Part shown: piece after piece, positions 1 through 9,121 of the stretch | Numbering within the stretch: position 1 is the first letter of the stretch | Layout: every line of letters begins with the position of its first letter | Assembly: GCF_025526975.1 (NCBI RefSeq) | Contig: NW_026515668.1 | Location: forward strand, 1,302,001 to 1,366,000 | Length of the DNA stretch: 64,000 nt | Direction of reading: 5' to 3' | DNA from: Fimicolochytrium jonesii | Taxonomy: Eukaryota | The notes under the pieces: model-generated | What the model saw: only the letters and a program-made list of their open reading frames with translations | Told to the model about the DNA's origin: nothing | The model's database searches: none | Position numbers and translations under genes: made by a program

Positions 1-194
1 CGGATCAGGGCCAAGGCGTGCGCCTGATGTCCCTGCCGGATGCACTGTTGTACTTGTCCCGAAGTGCGTCGCGGAGGCCCTCTCTGTTTTTCCAGATGGG
101 CACGATGGGCGCCAGGGGTTTGCCTGCGCGGGGTGGGCGGAGCCAGAGACGACTTGGCTACGAGCGCTAGCGCGGCGGGTGACGTTAACGCGGG

Positions 195-1274
195 TCACGC
201 ACCTTCTTTTTCATCCCCGTCTTTTTTAGCCCTGTGTTTTCTCTTCCCCCCATTTTTCTCCCCCTCAACAAACAGGGAGCCCACGTAGGTGTCCACAGCA
301 CGCCGGGCTGCGCGGGCGGTGTCGACGGGCTGCCCCATCAGGTCCCCCGCCACGATCCGCGCTGTGTCGTCGCAGTCCGTGACCAGGTAGCTGCGGCCTG
401 CGCTCCGAGAGGATGCAACGATGAGTCGGAGGGGCTCGCCGGCCAGTCTGCAGATCTCGACCAAGCTCTGGGCGGCTGTGATGAGCGCCCCCTCGGCGAC
501 GACGACGTCCGCGATGGTCGCCGATATGCTCCCCACGTCGTCGCGGAGCGCCCTCCTGTTGTCGGGGTCCAGCTGGTCGACCAACGCCCGCGCGAGGCTA
601 CGTTGTGCGCTGTGGCCAAGCAAGTTGGCGGTCCCGGGCCTAGCCTCCGCACCGGCAGCCTCCCTCATCCGCCCCATGTCGACGTCGGCCGTTTTCCGAG
701 CTTCCGCCATGTCCGCCATGCTCAATGACCTGAACCGATCAGCGGGGTCGCCCGCCCGTAGAAGCTGCAGCATTCGGTTGACCATTCTTGTCTTCTCTTG
801 CTGAAGGATGCGTTTGGCGGACTTTCCACTGCGCTTCTTGGGCGCGGCGCTCGCCCCCTCCTCCCCAGCCTCCTCCTCAGCGCGCCCCTCCTCCTCAGCG
901 CACCCCTCCTCCTCCGCGTCGCCCTCCTCCCCCCCTTCCTGCTCATGCTCGCTCCCCTCGTCGCCGACGGCAAGTAGCACGCTGGTGGCCATGTCCGCCA
1001 GCGCCTCCTCGCTCTCGACGTCAGAGTCGGAGCCATCAGCGGCCTTGTCGGCGGCCTCCGCCACCTTCGACCGGCGGGCCGGCATCTAGAAAAAGCAGTG
1101 GATATGCATGTGTCGTTAGCGCCCGCGCGCGGCAGTGCCATATATATGCCCGCTCCACACACCGCCCGCGGTAGCGCCTCCCCGCCCGCGCTATCGCATC
1201 CTTATGGCGAGTCTGTGGTGAGGCTATATATATATGCCAGCTGCACACCCCCATACCTCGCCGGCCGCTTCCAT
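195..1274 (-). CDS. Hypothetical protein (acidic N-terminal region, basic NLS-like tracts KKRSGKSAKR and GGKRKHRAKK)
   Basis: 296-aa ORF 195..1085. A probable short first exon MEAAGE (1274-1257) is joined in phase by an intron GTATGG...GCTAAC...TTTTCTAG (1256-1086). No recognisable domain. Confidence 0.55.
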
Positions 1275-1331
1275 GTTTGACCGGCTAGGGCCGGGCGCCT
1301 TTGCCGCCGCTTGGCTGCGAGTCTCCATCTT

Positions 1332-1396
1332 TGTGTGGGTGTGTGGGTGCGCGTGTGTGTGTGAGTGTGTGTGGGTGTGTGTGTGGGGGTGGGTGT
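1332..1396. repeat. Imperfect (GT)n microsatellite between divergent genes
   Basis: tgtgtgggtgtgtgggtgcgcgtgtgtgtgtgagtgtgtgtgggtgtgtgtgtggggg seen directly. Confidence 0.85.
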
Positions 1397-1701
1397 TTCT
1401 CCGCCTTCCAGAGCCGGCCGCACTTAGCTGCTTAGCCAATCCGCTGGAGGTGGCGCAGTCGCGGCGCAGCCGTGGCTTGCCGGTCACATGTCCACACTGC
1501 TGCTGTGATGATCGCCGCATCTCCAGGACCACACTGCCACACGAAACGTCAAGCGCTTGCAGCGGACGACAGCCCCCCGGCCAGCGCCTCCTTCCAGCTC
1601 AAGCCCGGCAACTCACACAGAGCACGCTCCGACAATGCTCAGCGCTGACGAGGTGAGTGGCCGCTGTGTAGCCGTGGGCGTCTCTGCCGGGTGTTGACCG
1701 C

Positions 1702-2129
1702 CTGATCCCGCAGCCCATGCTGAGCACGACCGCCGCTTGCGGGAGGTCGACCGGCATGGGGTGCGCTGTCTGGGCGTGTTTGCTATCCGCTGATCCCGCC
1801 GCCCATGCTGAGCACGACCGCCGCTTGCGGGAGGTCGACCGGCATGGGGTGCGCTGTCTGGGCGTGTTTGCTATCCGCTGATCCCGCAGCCCATGCTGAG
1901 CACGACCGCCGCTTGCGGGAGGTCGACCGGCATGGGGTGCGCTGTCTGGGCATGTTTGCTATCCGCTGATCCCGCAGCCCATGCTGAGCACGACCGCCGC
2001 TTGCGGGAGGTCGACCGGCATGGGGTGCGCTGTCTGGGCGTGCTTGCTATCCGCTGATCCCGCAGCCCATGCTGAGCACGACCGCCGCTTGCGGGAGGTC
2101 GACCGGCATGGGGTGCGCTGTCTGGGCAT
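1702..2129 (+). repeat. 88-bp tandem repeat, ~4.9 near-identical copies
   Basis: Unit ctgatcccgcagcccatgctgagcacgacc...gctatccg starts at 1702, 1790, 1878, 1966 and 2054. Confidence 0.95.
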
Positions 2130-2214
2130 TCTGCTGTGCCACGTCGATGGTCGCGATTGCGCGGGCTGAGCTGCTAACACCTTCCCCCTCCCCTTCCCCT
2201 CTACCGCGCCGCAG

Positions 2215-3513
2215 GCCACGCCACCCGTCCCACCCACCGCGGTCGAGGCTCTTCTGATGGGCATGGGCGAGAGCCGCGCCACAGCTATCTTCGGCGACAC
2301 GGTGGCCTTTTTGTATCCGCTGCTGGTAGACGCCGGCCTTGCCGCCCGGGACGCCAGCCTAGAAGACAAGGCAAAGGCGATTGGCCTTTTTTCAAAGAAG
2401 ATCAAGCAAGACAGCCCCACCCTTTGGGGTTGGTGGATCAATAGGCCAACGCGGTCCCGTCACCAGAAGAAGCGCGCCAAGCACCACATTGGGCTCCAGT
2501 CCGGCATCATTGCCGCAATCAGCGATGGCAGTCTTACCACGGCCGACTTCTCGGTGGACCCCCAGCCCTCCGCTAGCCGCCCGGCTGTTCACATCGTGGT
2601 GCCAACGCCCGCCTCGTGCGATGGCTGGGAGGGCGAGATGGCCTATGCGGGGTTTGGGAAGCGGCCGGCGAAGGCAAGGGGCCTGGATGGGCTTGAGCAA
2701 ATTGAACCCCGGGGGGGGGCCGACATCTACATCCGCGACGAGCACGGCGCCCTTGTGGCCACAATCTCGTACAATAGCGCGGGTCGTCGCGAGCATGACC
2801 TGCGGCTGGGGCTCATCGTCGAGTCCTGTGGATCCCGGCCGGCTCTGGTTCGATGGAAGGCTTCAAGGGGCACAATGCACGCCGCGGGGCTTCGTCGTGG
2901 CGTCAAGCACTCGGGATATGCCAGGGGGACGTCGCACTATTCAATGAAAGGAGGGGCTGACATGTCGGCAAAGAAGTTTCTCGTCGCCACGGAAAAGGCC
3001 TTCACCAAGCGACTGCTGCAGGAGCTCACCAAACGCAACCCCACCGCGGCGGCCTACCTGATGATGTCCATGCCAGAGGTGTACGGCCCACACTCCGATG
3101 AGTTCGCCCCGCTGTTCACCACGACCAACTACCAAGTGGTCGTTCACTCCGACCCGTCGGACGACGGCGTAGCCGGCAAGCTGAACCCGCACACAGGCCG
3201 CGCCGTATGGAAGCTGACCCCCAAGGAGGAGCTTCCGGAGGAGCTTCAGGCCCGCAAGCTATGCACGCAATGGGTGGCAGGCTATGCCGCCGCTCCGCCA
3301 ACCGTCGTCGGGGAGTGGATATTTGCGCTGCCAGAGCAAGGCTTCTACTTGGTGCTGCAGCCCAACTGCATGTGGACGTGGATGTCTGACAGGCTCCACG
3401 GAACGCCGGTGCTTGACGCGTCCGGCGGCAGTCGCCACACGGCTGTTGTGACGCTGCCCCTGGCGACGGCCGCGGCCATCCGGAAATACGGCCTCCCTGA
3501 TCAAGACGAATAG
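2215..3513 (+). CDS. TET/JBP-like 2-oxoglutarate-Fe(II) dioxygenase (main exon; 5' exon probably near 1635-1652)
   Basis: 418-aa ORF with GTMHAAGLR (resembles the GxMxxxGWR motif of fungal Tet-like proteins), HxD (HSD, 3145-3153), distal His in RLHGT (3397) and Arg in SRHTAVV (3433). A splice acceptor GCTAAC...CCGCAG ending at 2214 is in frame with the ORF; upstream donor GAG|GTGAGT at 1653. Confidence 0.7.
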   Translation, partial: ATPPVPPTAVEALLMGMGESRATAIFGDTVAFLYPLLVDAGLAARDASLEDKAKAIGLFSKKIKQDSPTLWGWWINRPTRSRHQKKRAKHHIGLQSGIIAAISDGSLTTADFSVDPQPSASRPAVHIVVPTPASCDGWEGEMAYAGFGKRPAKARGLDGLEQIEPRGGADIYIRDEHGALVATISYNSAGRREHDLRLGLIVESCGSRPALVRWKASRGTMHAAGLRRGVKHSGYARGTSHYSMKGGADMSAKKFLVATEKAFTKRLLQELTKRNPTAAAYLMMSMPEVYGPHSDEFAPLFTTTNYQVVVHSDPSDDGVAGKLNPHTGRAVWKLTPKEELPEELQARKLCTQWVAGYAAAPPTVVGEWIFALPEQGFYLVLQPNCMWTWMSDRLHGTPVLDASGGSRHTAVVTLPLATAAAIRKYGLPDQDE

Positions 3514-3820
3514 CCGCGCCACCCCCAGCAGCAGCGGCCCCCCCTCGTGCGTAGATGTGGACCTTGACTGCGTAGATTTTGTAGACCTTGCCTGCCTTGC
3601 CTGCGTAGATTTTGCAGACCTTGCCTGTGTAGAAAGGTCCCATCAATAGGCGAGTTTGGCGCGCAAGAGTCCGATGTGGCGAGGGGCTTGCTCCAGTAGC
3701 GCGGGCGAACGTGATGGACCGGACCTCGCTGCGAAGCTTCGGCGGCTGGAGGCCCGAGCTGCCCGTCCAGACCTTGCCCAGCGTGTCTCCGTCCTGCGGG
3801 CGCCACAATGACACGCACAC

Positions 3821-4360
3821 ACGTTAGCGCTGGACTCGTGACGTTAGCGCGGGCGTGGGCGCTAACGCCTGTGAGGCCGCGTTAGCGCGGGCGTGGGCGC
3901 TAACGCCTGTGAGGCCACGTTAGCGCGGGCGTGGGTGCTAACGCCTGTGGGGCCACGTTAGCACGGGCGTGGGTGCTAACGCCTGTGGGGCCACGTTAGC
4001 GCTGGCGTGGGTGCTAACGCCTGTGGGGCCACGTTAGCGCGGGCGTGGGTGCTAACGCCTGTGGGGTCACGTTAGCGTGGGCGTGGGTGCTAACGCCTGT
4101 GGGGCCACGTTAGCGCGGGCGTGGGTGCTAACGCCTGTGAGGCCACGTTAGCGCGGGCGTGGGTGCTAACGCCTGTGGGGCCACGTTAGCGCAGGCGTGG
4201 GTGCTAACGCCTGTGGGGCCACGTTAGCGCGGGCGTGGGTGCTAACGCCTGTGGGGCCACGTTAGCGCGGGCGTGGGTGCTAACGCCTGTGAGGCCACGT
4301 TAGCCCGGGCGTGGGTGCTAACGTCTGTGAGGCCACGTTAGCGCGGGCGTGGGTGCTAGC
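3821..4360 (+). repeat. 38-bp tandem array, 13 full copies plus partials, each with a 9-bp-stem hairpin
   Basis: Unit acgttagcgcgggcgtgggtgctaacgcctgtggggcc starts at 3841, 3879, 3917 ... 4297, with a partial copy at 4335. Internal inverted repeat cgttagcgc/gYgctaacg. Confidence 0.95.
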
Positions 4361-4654
4361 GCCGGCGTGGGTGCCACTCACCGTGCCCCGGGGCTCCGCG
4401 TCTGCAGGCCTCTACATGGACGTGAGCAGACAAGTTCCAGACCGCCAAGACCGAGCTCCTTCTTACAATTGCGCACAATTGCGCACACTTCCACCCTCGC
4501 ACATTCAAGGCAAACCCCCAGCCAATCTCTGAAAGCCTTCAGCACTTCGCAGGTAAGCGGGAGTCCAGGATCCTCCTCGAGAGCAGGCCCCTTGCTCGGC
4601 CCCCTTGATCTGACCACTTGCCTGCACAGCACAGCACAGCGCGGCACAGCCATC

Positions 4655-7519
4655 ATGTCATCACACCAGGCGCTCCAGGGGCACCTGTGGGGTGGCTTCT
4701 TTACGGGAGCAACCACACCACGGCGGAAGAGGAGGAAGGTTACTCCGGCTACCCCGCGGCTGCCCATAAATCTGCCAGCCGCTGTGCAGACACCTTTGCA
4801 ACCACCCCCGCGATTCGAGTTCCCACCTTCTGTCCATCGCCACTTGCCCCAAGCAATTGCAGACATGGTTAGCGAGAGCTCCGGCGATGAAGACGGGCAG
4901 CAGCAGCAGCAACAGCAGCGAGGGCTTTCGCCCGTGGACAGGGGTCTGCAGCGCCCACCGAACCTCCCCGCGCCCATCCCTTTCCGTTTTCCCAGCACAC
5001 CGGGTGGATCCCTGGTGTATGAACCCCCGCCACCACCACCAGCTCAACGACCCCGCCCGCAAACACATGCCAGCACCAAGGTTTCGCTTCACCGAATCAT
5101 CCAAAATCACAATCAAGTCCAAAGGGAGCGCCTGACAACGTTCATCGCCGATGTTCACGTCCTTGCGCGCCACACCACCTTCTTTATCAAGTACTACCTT
5201 GGTGAGTTTTTGAGGTACACTATACTGTATATTTCCCATAAAACAATGTCCTGACTGCTACATCTGCCCACCCCACCACAGCTGACCATCCTCTACACGA
5301 TTTCCCGGACATCACCGACAAGCACATCAGTGTGATGTTTGAGCTGCTCAACAATCCAGGCTACAATGGCAATCCGCTCATCGCGCAAGAGTTGCGTCCA
5401 TGGGTTCAAGACTACTGTAATGTTCACGGATTTGCCCCCATCCGCATGCGAAATTGCCAACAGACCGCAGCGTACACGGCTACGAGCATCCTCACAAACC
5501 TCAAAGTTAACGTACAAGAGCATTTCATGCAAATGTTTCTGCGCTACGTCAATGAGAGGCTTGGTTTGAAGCAAGTCGAACGGCATCTCCGGAGAGCGCA
5601 GCGGCGACACTATTATCGTCGTGTCTGTCAATTTACAAAGTACGCGACGTTTGAAGAGTACCCAACCGAAGAGGAGCTTGCACGCCTCACACGACTTGAG
5701 CAGACCGTCCTCGACGAGTTATGGGCTCTTTTTCCTCCCCAGGATGAGCCGCTTGCGTACAGCCTTGCGGTGGACGCAATGCCATATTTAGGTGAGTTAG
5801 TATATATCCGTCCCCCCCCTCCCCGCGGGTTCCGCTTTTGTCTAATCATGGTCCGCACCTGCCTCGCCTCATCACAGGTGCCTATTGTGAGCTCTCACGC
5901 CTCTATGAGCGCCGTGGAATGCGGCTGTTTTCCGCTATCCCGCTGCGCAAATCTTGAATCCAGTCATCTGTTCGGATCGACACAAAGATCCTAGGCACTC
6001 ATATCCTGGGCTTGAGCCAAAGTCGCATGGGGAAACTTACCGATGAACGCAAGCGGGAGCTGTGGGGGCAGTTTCTCAATGTGAATGTAAGTTAAGTCTG
6101 TATCCCTCTGCGCTTATTTCAATCACCTCGCTGAATGACGATTGGAGGACAAGGTCTTCAAGGATCGAAAGAAGCTTGGTCTCAAATTTGATGGGTCAAT
6201 CAGCACAAACGGGTATTCCGCTACCACCCACTTCAAGAAGCCAGGGCTCAAGTACGGCCATCGCGCTCGGAAGCGCAGCAAAGCCCAAATGCAGGAAGAA
6301 GTCAAGCAGCTGTATTTTGAGCACCACATCGCCGAACTAAGGGAGGCTCCAAACATCGTCTGCATTGATCCGGGCAAGCGTGACCTCTTGTTCTGTCGAG
6401 ACATCAAGAAGGAGCGGCCATTTCGGTGCGTTTCAGTTGATTACTACTGCCCTGCTGTCCCCGCTACCCCCCCCCCCCCCCCCCGTCTCCGCCCGCCAGC
6501 CCCCCGTCTCCACCCGCCAGCCCCCCGTCTCCACCAGCCAGCCCCCCGTCTCCACCCGCCAGCCCCCCGTCTCCGCCCGCCAGCCCCCCGTCTCCGCCAT
6601 CCCCGTTGCGGCGACATTCCGTTGCAGCGTCCTCACAATGCACCACCCCATATCAGATACACATCCAATCAACGGGCGGTCGAGACAAAGTCTCGGTACT
6701 TTCAAAGAGACATGAGAGAGCGAAAGATCAATGCCGGCATCGCTGAGATGGAATCACATATTCCATCGCACAAGAGCATGAACATCGAGGCGTTCTCAGC
6801 GTTCATCGTGGATTACGAACATGCGGGTATGATGTTCCACTTCAACTTTGATTTTCAACTTTGGTAATACATGGGCTGACATCTATATCCCAGATCCCGC
6901 CCTGGATGAGTTTTACCAGGATAAGGTTCACATAGCTCGCAGATTCAAGGCGTTCTCACTGCGGCAAAAGTCTGAGAGCAAGCTCATCAAGGACATGCGC
7001 CGCCTGTATGGAAAGCATTTTTCGGTCATCTTGGGTGATTGGAGCGACGCTGGAAAAACCATGCGCTTTCAGGAGTCATCAAAGACCAAAGGGTGAGTGA
7101 CCATCATTGTTTTTTATGTATTATAATACGCTCACTCATGGGGGGAAATCAGATTCCGCACACTCTTTGCAAGAAACAGCATTCCATGCTACTTGCTAGA
7201 TGAGTATCGAACGTCCTCCCTGTGCCCAGACTGCCACGGGCGTGTGAAGAAAAACATCCGACGCCGGCTGTCACCTCGGCCGTGGCAAGCTAGAAAGGGA
7301 AGAATGGAATACGTCCATGGATTGGTGGGTTGCCCCAACCCCGAATGTATCAACCAAGACTGGACGCCGTTTGAGATTCCTGGAAGACAACCACTACGAC
7401 TACGGATGAAAGTGCACAATCGGGACGTCCTAAGCACCAAGAATTTCCTCTCGATTGTGCGTTCGGTGGTGTTTGGCAATGGCCGCAGACCAGACGCATT
7501 CTCCCGTAACCGTAGGTAG
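4655..7519 (+). CDS. Fanzor1: Fanzor1 (eukaryotic TnpB-like RNA-guided RuvC nuclease), 7 exons, one in-frame TGA (possible pseudogene)
   Basis: Exons 4655-5201, 5282-5791, 5878-6086, 6148-6425, 6657-6826, 6894-7092 and 7153-7519 sum to 2280 nt in one frame. Motifs: FDGSISTNG, RuvC-I CIDPGKRDL (D at 6367), FRYTSNQR, ILGDWS, RuvC-II LDEYRTS (E at 7202), zinc finger CPDC...CPNPEC, RuvC-III HNRDVLSTKNF (D at 7424), N-terminal RRKRRKV NLS-like tract. TGA at 5955-5957. Confidence 0.88.
6467..6598 (+). repeat. Poly-C plus 21-bp tandem repeat (~5.7 copies) inside Fanzor intron 4
   Basis: ccccccgtctccRcccgccag repeated from 6479 to 6598. Confidence 0.9.
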
Positions 7520-7540
7520 TCTAGATTTCACCCCATCCCA

Positions 7541-7640
7541 TTTTCCGTGGGGGTTATCTGCCATCCACATCATTGTACCTCTGCCTGAGGCGTCGCCGAT
7601 GATGGCAACTTGTATTCCCAAACAACATTCCAGATCCAGC
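7541..7640 (+). ncRNA. Candidate Fanzor omegaRNA scaffold plus guide
   Basis: Immediately 3' of the Fanzor stop. Nested stems tggggg(7548-53)/ttccca(7615-20), tgccatc(7559-65)/gatggca(7601-07) and inner cctc/gagg. The position matches known Fanzor omegaRNA loci. Confidence 0.5.
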
Positions 7641-9121
7641 AAGCAGGACACTCCCCAGTTCGGGTATATTGGCAACCGCCGCCGTCAATGGGAAGGAAGT
7701 GGGTCAGAACGACGACGGCAGGACGGGTATCAGTCTCCTCACGACTTTCAGTGTCATCTTGTGAGCCATCTTGCGCTTTGTACCGTAACAGGGGAGAATA
7801 TGAGAATATTCCCACCTGGTGTACTCGACACTAGCTCGACAGTCTTTGATGGAGTCACACAGCGGTGGACCATCTCTTGACAGTGCGTCAAAATCCGTCT
7901 TGCTGGTTCTTACAGGTTGGCGAGATAACTCAACAGCGATGGAGAACCGACGCTCGAGCCTTAGAGAACTGCGTCCGCCGCCGCGCCTCACGATACAAAA
8001 ACCGAATGTCACTATAGAAATCCTGCACGGGTGTCCGTTGTGCTGGTATTCACAACGAATGACGAAGGCCCAAAGTGAATGAATCACAAATGACAGGACC
8101 GGAAGGAAAGGTCAAAATGAAATTCGTCGAAACAGGCCTTGGATTCTCTCTCGCTCAATAAGAGAAACAAAGTCTGGAATGCATCTGGCTGTATCTAGTG
8201 TCAGCAGAGATCATTCCTGTCGGGTGCGAACCGAAATCTCTTCAGAGCCTTTCTTTGATGAGCGCAGATCCTTCGACAACTTGGTAGACAACTTTGTATG
8301 TAGAATGGTTGCACCTTAGTGGTTCCGAAGTTTACTCCTGTATATTACATGGGCATTTTGTCCAAGGTGCCCCTTGCGGATAGCGGTGAGGCGGCGCTTC
8401 AACCTCTGAGTGAGCATTTGTGTGGAATTTTGTGCGCATCGGTGTACTGCCGAAAGCAGCCCGAAACATGCCCTGCACCCAGGCATCCCTCCCCACGAAA
8501 CATATACAGAGTAGGTCCCTGTGCCAGAGCGGAGTTTGAACCTTGATTGAAGGAAGCTCACATGATGAGGTCTCTCACGTTGACCGCAAGCTGGCTGACC
8601 ACGCAAAACAATTCGAAGCGCTGACCAAAACAATCCAGTGCGATCACCGCATGTGCCAAACCGACGTTCGTCCTGTCGGAAATGCGCCCACGCCTGTCGA
8701 GATACGGCGCCGTAAGCAAAAGGCCAAGCAAACAGGGCTTGCCTGTTGCTTCTGTGTTCCTGCCGCGTTCGATGATCGAATCCATCACGAGGCCCCACCG
8801 TTCACCTTCCTTCAACCACTGCGTAGTCAACTTTGCGAGTGGAGGTCCTGTTATCTCTCTGTGCATATCCTCTCTACGACATCCGGCACTTTGAAATCGA
8901 GTGTATCCTATCGTGAGGCCACCGCGCAATGGCGCATTAGGTATGTGTGTCAGTCGGGCATGTACTCGGAACTTTCGTCGGTGTCTTGGACTGTGGGAAA
9001 TTTACTTGGGAAAACCGGGCTCATAGATTTGTTGAAACCCTCAGTGGTATTCTCCTCGGACCCAACACCTCATATCATAGAAGCCACGAAACGGCGCAGT
9101 TTTGTAATATCTTCCGCAGCT

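What the first reader, a model, noticed from the sequence alone, without database searches (positions are those of the whole stretch)
7520..7645. Candidate omegaRNA and element right end
About 20 nt after the stop, a ~80-nt nested stem structure starts at ttttccg (7541): tggggg/ttccca, tgccatc/gatggca and cctc/gagg. Fanzor omegaRNA scaffolds end at the element boundary and the guide comes from the flank, so aacaacattccagatccagc (7621 onward) may contain the guide.
Basis: inference. Interest (0 to 1): 0.75.

Follow-up and report, generated by a model that had tools for sequence, protein, structure and literature searches.

The report
Stretched Fanzor guide-RNA locus in chytrid
Behind a broken copy of an RNA-guided DNA-cutting gene (Fanzor) of a chytrid fungus lie the two conserved ends of what is likely its guide RNA, but about 240 bases apart, so the jumping element probably ends some 200 bases further on than first proposed and the fold first proposed is likely a misfold.

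Summary
The 5' start of the omegaRNA is right: TTTTCC is followed by a local 7-bp hairpin (7547-7568) equivalent to SpuFz1 SL1, a module also found in 18 of 20 homologous loci with a usable 3' flank. The SpuFz1-type 3' module (linker, TGGTG/CACTA terminal stem) occurs instead at 7807-7833, with 20 nt identical to published ghost scaffolds (0 of 20,000 shuffles). The best right end is therefore A7833 with guide 7834-7848, giving a scaffold of about 294 nt whose poorly structured middle carries direct repeats that may be an insertion scar. Ends at 7614 or 7668 remain possible. No paralogous DNA, reads or small-RNA data were obtainable, so the boundary is inferred from homology, not observed.

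The parts
4655..7519 (+). Fanzor1 gene of the SpuFz1 clade, 7 exons (4655-5201, 5282-5791, 5878-6086, 6148-6425, 6657-6826, 6894-7092, 7153-7519), 759 codons, premature TGA at 5955-5957; RuvC D496/E655/D729 and four zinc cysteines present
   Evidence: E 3e-28 and 1e-25 to PDB 8gkh; 46% to SpuFz1 P0022 over 615 aligned residues; 91% to stop-free paralog P0093; 718 of 718 to P0095
7540..7546 (+). omegaRNA 5' leader; 7544-7546 correspond to SpuFz1 U5, C6, C7 (inferred by homology)
7547..7568 (+). SL1: 7 bp with one 3' bulge and loop TTATCTG (family loop TNNWCG plus one extra base)
   Evidence: CM built without the window ranks it 4th of 11 in 128 kb, E 5.3
7569..7806 (+).
   Evidence: (7580-7784: z +1.73)
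7789..7818 (+). 12-bp hairpin with GAGA tetraloop directly before the terminal stem (overlaps the linker)
   Evidence: 7786-7833: z -3.75, stretch chosen by eye
7807..7833 (+). SpuFz1-type 3' module: linker TATTCCC, three extra bases, terminal stem 7817-7822/7828-7833 ending in CACTA; inferred right end of the element (TA included)
7834..7848 (+). Predicted 15-nt guide from the flank (inferred)
   Evidence: by analogy with SpuFz1; not observed
7615..7629 (+). Alternative guide if the end is the TA at 7613-7614 (rival 1)
2257..3513 (+). Upstream 418-codon ORF with a TET/JBP-like HxD...H...R pattern, possibly cargo of the same element; the same stretch is joined to a Fanzor N-terminus in another gene model
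   Evidence: P0068; Atlas lead only; no Pfam or PDB hit

Best explanation
The stretch after the Fanzor1 stop codon is likely an omegaRNA locus whose two SpuFz1-like modules, a 5' leader with hairpin SL1 (7540-7568) and a linker with terminal stem (7807-7833), lie about 240 bases apart, so the element probably ends at 7833 and its guide would be 7834-7848. Shown here: the gene, both modules, their similarity to SpuFz1 and ghost scaffolds, and the weak structure of the middle. Inferred mechanism: the RNA would be cut out of the element's 3' transcript. SL1 would dock on the RuvC/TNB surface and the terminal stem on WED/RuvC, with the middle looped out. The 15 flanking bases would direct cutting of the empty site after excision, and repair from the element-bearing chromatid would restore the element. 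This copy cannot make full-length nuclease by the exon model shared with its paralogs (TGA at 5955), so any activity would rely on protein from intact copies such as P0093. The middle most likely arose by an insertion or duplication into a scaffold of roughly 90-100 nt. Whether that is family-wide (long working scaffold) or private to this copy (damaged scaffold) is open; I put it near even.
For: Protein: SpuFz1 clade, catalytic triad intact. 5' module: same leader and loop as SpuFz1 scaffolds. Same 7 bp plus bulge as SpuFz1 ID16, with four pairs changed in sequence yet still pairing (by-eye comparison). Found 4-152 nt after the C-terminal match in 18 of 20 loci with usable 3' flank (union). 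Covariation on six homologs without the window: 79% of cells paired, score reached by 1 of 500 shuffles, higher than all six slid registers. 3' module: 7+7+6 nt identical to ghost scaffolds. Pattern expected 0.08 times in 128 kb and found once, here. 0 of 20,000 shuffles of the 400 nt after SL1 hold the full motif and 16 of 20,000 hold a shorter form. The three bases that SpuFz1 reads directly (C34, U35, G37) are matched by C7816, T7817, G7819, and the protein keeps K483, Q482 and K312 equivalents. The inferred ends of L004, L005 and L014 also read ACTA. Terminal stem pairing probability is 0.83-0.94 in the full-length fold. Long scaffolds exist: about 207 nt in L014, where a TIR marks the end, and a 229-nt RNA for a Batrachochytrium Fanzor1. 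The region beyond SL1 is reported as unconstrained.
Against: No paralogous DNA, empty site, reads or small RNA could be examined. The motif test used a 0-4 nt gap chosen after seeing the window, and the loose form of the motif is common (9,694 of 20,000 shuffles). The whole 294-nt RNA folds no better than shuffles (z +0.72), and unconstrained SL1 has probability only 0.03-0.09 in it because its G-rich arm pairs with the linker; forcing SL1 costs 1.4 kcal/mol. 294 nt exceeds every Fanzor1 scaffold I saw. The CM hit on SL1 is not significant by itself (E 5.3), and that model missed L002, L019-21 and L027-28. A pair count that included the window on a MAFFT alignment was not above shuffles, because the window's loop is one base longer; the register slid by one scored 83%. 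No left TIR matches 7833 within 1-7500, whereas Spu-1 has 30-nt TIRs. A 7-mer inside the terminal loop recurs right after the proposed end (7824-7830 and 7835-7841), which is unexplained.
Confidence: 0.6

Rival explanations
1. Compact 75-nt scaffold as in SpuFz1: SL1, a 5-6-nt linker, an irregular second stem closing at the TA 7613-7614, and guide 7615-7629. The motif at 7807-7833 would be the remnant end of another, gene-less element lying in the flank.
For: A TA falls at scaffold positions 74-75, exactly the SpuFz1 length. The end resembles the CTAGTA end of L019-L022 and L027. The sequence after about 7600 is unstructured, as a flank would be.
Against: Of C34, U35 and G37 only U35 is matched. 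The guide would pair with the SL1 5' arm. The 3' module has no SL1 of its own in front of it.
Confidence: 0.14
2. 129-nt scaffold closing with a 7-bp helix 7574-7580/7662-7668 (or 7612-7623/7658-7669), right end at TA 7667-7668, guide 7669-7683.
For: An equally long TA-ending helix occurs in 65 of 1,000 shuffles and 13 of 342 real tiles.
Against: The interior folds worse than shuffles (z +0.9). There is no sequence likeness to SpuFz1-clade ends, and several other 7-8-bp helices of the same quality exist.
Confidence: 0.09
3. One reading: nested long-range stem 7548-7620, element end near 7620, guide from 7621.
For: It is the minimum-energy fold when the RNA is cut at 7620-7640. 7613-7620 is one copy of an 8-bp direct repeat.
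Against: Not better than shuffles. It excludes the universally conserved SL1, leaves only a 3-bp terminal helix at 7620 once SL1 is formed, and vanishes with more flank.
Confidence: 0.05
4. The middle is a spliceosomal intron (about 7575-7791) whose removal would give a three-hairpin scaffold of 77 nt, in a gene that already carries six introns.
For: There is a CAG at 7789-7791 after a pyrimidine-rich tract. The middle-free form has the SpuFz1 length and folds into SL1, a hairpin and the terminal stem.
Against: All six donors of the gene have G at +5; none of the three GT sites between 7569 and 7620 does. The middle-free fold is not significant (z -0.72).
Confidence: 0.04

Closest known systems
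SpuFz1 omegaRNA and Spu-1/ghost elements of Spizellomyces punctatus (Saito et al. 2023, PMC10432273; PDB 8gkh)
   Same: Protein clade (46% identity), catalytic triad, TTTTCC leader about 20 nt after the stop, 7-bp SL1 with bulge, TTRTC loop start, linker AWTCCC, terminal stem TGGTG/CACTA ending in TA.
   Different: Six introns and an N-terminal extension of about 120 residues, against a single ORF. About 240 nt lie between SL1 and the linker, against none. The terminal stem has only a 5-nt loop instead of a 30-nt distal arm, and the SL1 loop is one base longer. No TIR within the window, so the element would exceed 7.8 kb against 2.1 kb. Two of six TAM-contact residues differ (R96 to G, N133 to A).
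PpFz1 and GtFz1 omegaRNAs (Xu et al. 2024, PMC11423790)
   Same: 7-bp SL1; variable content between SL1 and the guide (one short stem in PpFz1, three stems in GtFz1).
   Different: Their RNAs are 75 and 150 nt; here about 310 nt with guide, and the middle shows no stable fold.
CrFNuc / CRe-1,2,3 of Chlamydomonas (Jiang et al. 2023, PMC10530073; Bao and Jurka 2013, PMC3627910)
   Same: Intron-containing, multicopy Fanzor1 with the guide RNA in the 3' untranslated region.
   Different: Those are Helitron2 elements of a green alga. No Helitron transposase, ATIR or other transposase was identified here.
TET/JBP-carrying fungal DNA transposons (PMC12730594)
   Same: A TET/JBP-like ORF may ride next to the Fanzor (lead only).
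   Different: Described from rusts, mushrooms and Pezizomycetes; that paper's main text has no occurrence of Fanzor or chytrid. The dioxygenase identity here is unconfirmed.

Membership tests
Fanzor1 (SpuFz1 clade) nuclease gene | RuvC D-E-D triad with DP(G/N) motif and E six residues before the zinc finger | tested here: met
   D496, E655, D729 align with SpuFz1 D383, E541, D606; N385 is G, the DPG form named in PMC10711439
Fanzor1 (SpuFz1 clade) nuclease gene | CCCC zinc finger | tested here: met
   CPDC and GCPNPEC
Fanzor1 (SpuFz1 clade) nuclease gene | Intact reading frame in this copy | tested here: not met
   TGA at 5955 in exon 3; 10 of 11 paralogs that show the motif have Arg there; the annotated model P0095 skips the stop
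Fanzor1 (SpuFz1 clade) nuclease gene | Multicopy mobile element | tested here: met
   63 distinct annotated gene models from one species, 39 reaching the native C-terminus; protein level only, and some loci may give two models
Fanzor1 omegaRNA | 5' TCC leader followed by 7-bp SL1 with TNNWCG-type loop, shortly after the stop | tested here: met
   loop has one extra base; CM alone not significant
Fanzor1 omegaRNA | Terminal double-stranded stem ending at the element boundary | tested here: inconclusive
   SpuFz1-like stem at 7817-7833, weaker candidates at 7614 and 7668; boundary itself not observed
Fanzor1 omegaRNA | Conservation among copies drops at the scaffold end; variable 14-15-nt guide | not testable with these tools
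   no genome, no runs listed, no read-through gene models
Fanzor1 omegaRNA | Expressed small RNA bound by the protein; guided DNA cleavage with a TAM | not testable with these tools
   needs small-RNA-seq, RNP pulldown, cleavage assay
Spu-1 element | About 30-nt TIRs with CA-TA at the left end, about 2.1 kb, single ORF | tested here: not met
   no left TIR for any candidate end in 1-4900 or 1-7500; six introns; homology with other copies extends upstream of 4355; a left end outside the window is not excluded
Helitron1 3' end | Subterminal hairpin 10-15 nt before CTRR, followed by T | tested here: inconclusive
   hairpin 7789-7818 and CTAG 7831-7834 fit the spacing, but the next base is C and the hairpin is not GC-rich; CTRR end from PMC3627910, spacing and following T recalled
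TET/JBP dioxygenase (upstream ORF) | HxD...H...R on a double-stranded beta-helix fold | tested here: inconclusive
   motif seen by eye; Atlas top hit 0.96 with PF20515 on 15% of members, recognition score below threshold; no Pfam or PDB hit; AlphaFold models unusable, pLDDT 34-35

The most novel reading that the evidence does not exclude
A high-copy chytrid Fanzor1 family uses a naturally interrupted guide RNA: SL1 and a minimal terminal hairpin plus guide, together only about 55 nt, are held by the protein while about 240 nt between them are looped out, trimmed or spliced away, and the element also carries a TET/JBP-like dioxygenase.
Probability: 0.2. Interest if true: 0.72.

Novelty: new variant of a known kind. 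Interest (0 to 1): 0.42.

Why it matters
Fanzor1 with a 3' omegaRNA is a published system, so the basic call is ordinary. What this locus adds, if the 7833 end holds, is a natural test of how little of the scaffold matters: only SL1, a linker and a 6-bp terminal hairpin are kept from SpuFz1, close to the 52-nt trimmed scaffold engineered by Saito et al., and about 240 nt are tolerated between them. It also points to an apparently undescribed intron-rich family of at least several dozen copies with a probably different TAM, in which insertion sites could be read from one genome, and to a possible Fanzor plus TET/JBP cargo pairing.

Tried and rejected
No whole genome is held. No sequencing run was listed, so no reads were laid; this is not evidence either way. 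Rfam: nothing relevant. Left TIR searches for ends from 7585 to 7760 and for 7833 were at background; a partial match at about 4429 was rejected because other copies continue upstream of it. I looked for gene models that read through the stop into the flank, to map the boundary at protein level: none among P0001-P0070 or P0071-P0111, none in a database search with the open frame 7434-7700 (16 candidates, none scoring), and no exact record of ORF 7455-7877. Viral-contig scans gave two distant Fanzor loci, nothing, and four short pattern matches, L031-L034; L031 matched the SL1 descriptor, but none of the four was checked for a Fanzor gene. Of 30 Fanzor loci fetched, 10 were left out of the 3' analysis because they were cut at the contig end or had no C-terminal match (L003, L007, L009, L015, L018, L023, L025, L026, L029, L030); L022 and L024 showed no SL1. 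The descriptor was written after seeing the window and several homologs, so its 8 hits in 128 kb are not an independent test. Middle-free forms folded in silico were not significant (z -0.7 to -1.7; 171 of 1,141 control joins as stable). A 12-of-13 match of 7634-7646 to the 3' part of PpFz1 RNAs was set aside as probable chance. Structure prediction of the upstream ORF failed twice, so no fold search was run. Earlier-findings look-ups by sequence and place were empty.

Full report
Observation. Their nested pairing is the minimum-energy fold of 7540-7620, 7540-7629 and 7540-7640, but at about 4% of the ensemble and with z-scores of -0.82, -0.70 and +0.12. For 7500-7660 it is not the optimum and z is +0.46. 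When the folded stretch reaches 7668 or beyond, the outer helix has probability 0.04 or less. The pairing is possible but is what chance gives.

The gene. The last exon matches SpuFz1 (PDB 8gkh, E 3e-28) and PpFz1 (E 3e-10), and the RuvC-I region matches SpuFz1. Seven exons with GT-AG borders give 759 codons with one internal TGA at 5955. The product is 46% identical to SpuFz1 (P0022), 55% to a Gaertneriomyces protein (P0017), 91% to the stop-free P0093 and identical over 718 of 718 residues to P0095, which the source names an uncharacterized Fimicolochytrium jonesii protein. The catalytic D, E, D and four zinc cysteines are present. Of the SpuFz1 residues listed in PMC10432273 section 10, 7 of 17 SL1/5' contacts, 4 of 8 linker/stem contacts and 4 of 6 TAM contacts are identical. 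Searches returned 63 distinct gene models of this family from that species, 39 reaching the native C-terminus.

The 5' module. The published SpuFz1 scaffold (supplement of PMC10432273) begins with a TTTTCC leader, then a 7-bp hairpin, a 6-nt linker and a stem that closes on the last base before the guide. In the window the leader is followed by a local hairpin 7547-7568 with 7 bp and one bulge (z -2.10 alone). By eye, four of its pairs differ from SpuFz1 in sequence and still pair. I fetched 30 Fanzor loci, of which 20 have a usable 3' flank. A hairpin with the same kind of loop, in most cases after a TCC leader, lies 4-152 nt after the C-terminal match in 18 of those 20, about ten independent families. 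On six homologs without the window the helix covaries above 499 of 500 shuffles and above all slid registers (the tool warns that related sequences can inflate this). Two tests were weak. A covariance model from those six ranked the window's hairpin 4th of 11 in 128 kb, E 5.3, and missed several homologs. A pair count with the window in a MAFFT alignment was at shuffle level because of its one-base-longer loop. PMC11423790 reports SL1 as the constant part of three solved Fanzor1 RNPs.

The right end. In homologs whose end can be seen from flank divergence (L019-L021, L010-L013 and L017) or from a TIR (L014, L002), a helix of 6-9 bp closes at or within about two bases of the boundary, as PMC10711439 states for Fanzor1. 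At 7620 only 3 bp are available once SL1 is formed. TA at 7613-7614 gives the SpuFz1 length but only a 4-bp helix. TA at 7667-7668 gives a 7-bp helix of modest significance (65 of 1,000 shuffles). At 7807-7833 the window reads TATTCCC, three extra bases, TGGTGTA, four bases, ACACTA. The four ghost scaffolds in the supplement have these three words in the same order, with no gap after the first and a longer arm before the last. The pattern occurs once in 128 kb with 0.08 expected. In shuffles of the 400 nt after SL1 the full motif never appeared in 20,000 trials, a shorter form 16 times, and the loosest form in about half; the allowed gap was chosen after seeing the window. The three scaffold bases read directly by SpuFz1 (C34, U35, G37) are matched at 7816, 7817 and 7819, against one of three for the 7614 and 7668 models. 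I therefore place the end at A7833 and the guide at 7834-7848, with probability about 0.6.

The middle. 7580-7784 folds worse than 290 of 300 shuffles, and the whole 294-nt RNA is not unusually stable; in it the SL1 arm tends to pair with the linker instead. Exact repeats of 6 and 7 nt at period 205 and of 8 nt at period 194 flank the middle. A chained-repeat score as high was reached by 1 of 300 shuffles and 5 of 185 real tiles. This suggests an insertion or duplication into a scaffold of about 90-100 nt, similar to L004 (86 nt) and L005 (106 nt). An intron is unlikely for lack of a good donor. Without paralogous DNA I cannot tell whether the long form is the family norm.

Mechanism. Shown: gene, modules, similarity, broken frame. 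From the literature: omegaRNA extending 14-15 nt past the end, guided cleavage, and ghost RNAs working with protein made elsewhere (PMC10432273); restorative homing as the proposed role (PMC13565253). Inferred for this locus: expression, processing, looping out of the middle, use in trans, and the TAM.

Element context. No left TIR was found for any candidate end. Upstream lie a 38-nt array, a 418-codon ORF with a TET/JBP-like motif, an 88-nt array and a further ORF, all GC-rich. Gene model P0068 joins 2358-1619 on the minus strand to a Fanzor N-terminus, so this region is linked to the Fanzor in a second copy, in the other orientation. The transposase class is unknown.

Novelty and literature seen. 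PMC10432273: passages, section 10, supplements 4 (hits) and 5 (whole); 8 of 9 held files searched, one scanned PDF and one oversized PDF not seen. PMC11423790: passages and supplement hits. PMC10530073: passages and two supplements searched. PMC10711439, PMC3627910, PMC13533422, PMC12730594, PMC13565253: passages only. No description of this family was found in searches or in supplement searches. One preprint (PMC12247965) holds both words once each and was seen only as a listing; its journal version has no occurrence of Fanzor. Lists given by accession alone could hide these loci.

Noticed in passing
window 2257-3513 (+): 418-codon ORF with an HxD...H...R pattern; Atlas neighbours include 2OG-FeII_Oxy_6 and Tet_JBP clusters (lead only). 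Linked to a Fanzor N-terminus, inverted, in gene model P0068.
   Followed up: partly
window 195-1085 (-): 296-codon ORF without Pfam hit; Atlas neighbours are unnamed basidiomycete proteins.
   Followed up: partly
window 1702-2127 and 3841-4363: Tandem arrays of 88 nt x 4.8 and 38 nt x 13.8; the 38-nt unit has an internal inverted repeat and related copies at 179-194 and, inverted, at 1180-1202, which could mark inversion or subterminal repeats.
   Followed up: no
window 6426-6656: Intron 4 is inflated to 231 nt by a C run and a 21-nt repeat x 5.6; it stays in frame with the flanking exons.
   Followed up: no
window 4655-5010: N-terminal extension of about 120 residues absent from SpuFz1, proline-rich, with a basic RRKRRK stretch that looks like a nuclear localisation signal; 14 of 63 paralog models carry its start.
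   Followed up: no
window 7824-7841: CTCGACA occurs in the loop of the terminal hairpin and again one base after the proposed end, and a variant at 7876-7884; unexplained.
   Followed up: partly
window 7634-7646: 12-of-13 match to the 3' part of PpFz1 omegaRNA ID58. PpFz1 IDs 58 and 59 share 17 of 18 nt after their second stem, which suggests a fixed guide or a target-specific insertion in Parasitella. Probably chance for the window.
   Followed up: partly
L019 1453-1558, L020 2574-2679, L021 2860-2965, L027 2131-2221: Fanzor1 right ends where the terminal omegaRNA stem ends in CTAGTA; in L019-L021 it encloses a GC-rich hairpin, a layout resembling Helitron 3' ends (Helitron rule partly recalled).
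   Followed up: partly
L014 3542-7509 and L002 2444-6670: TIR-bounded Fanzor1 elements; L014 has a scaffold of about 207 nt that starts inside the coding sequence.
   Followed up: partly
P0043 residues 1-344: A gene model fuses what looks by eye like a tyrosine-recombinase domain to a Fanzor fragment, possibly a nested insertion.
   Followed up: no
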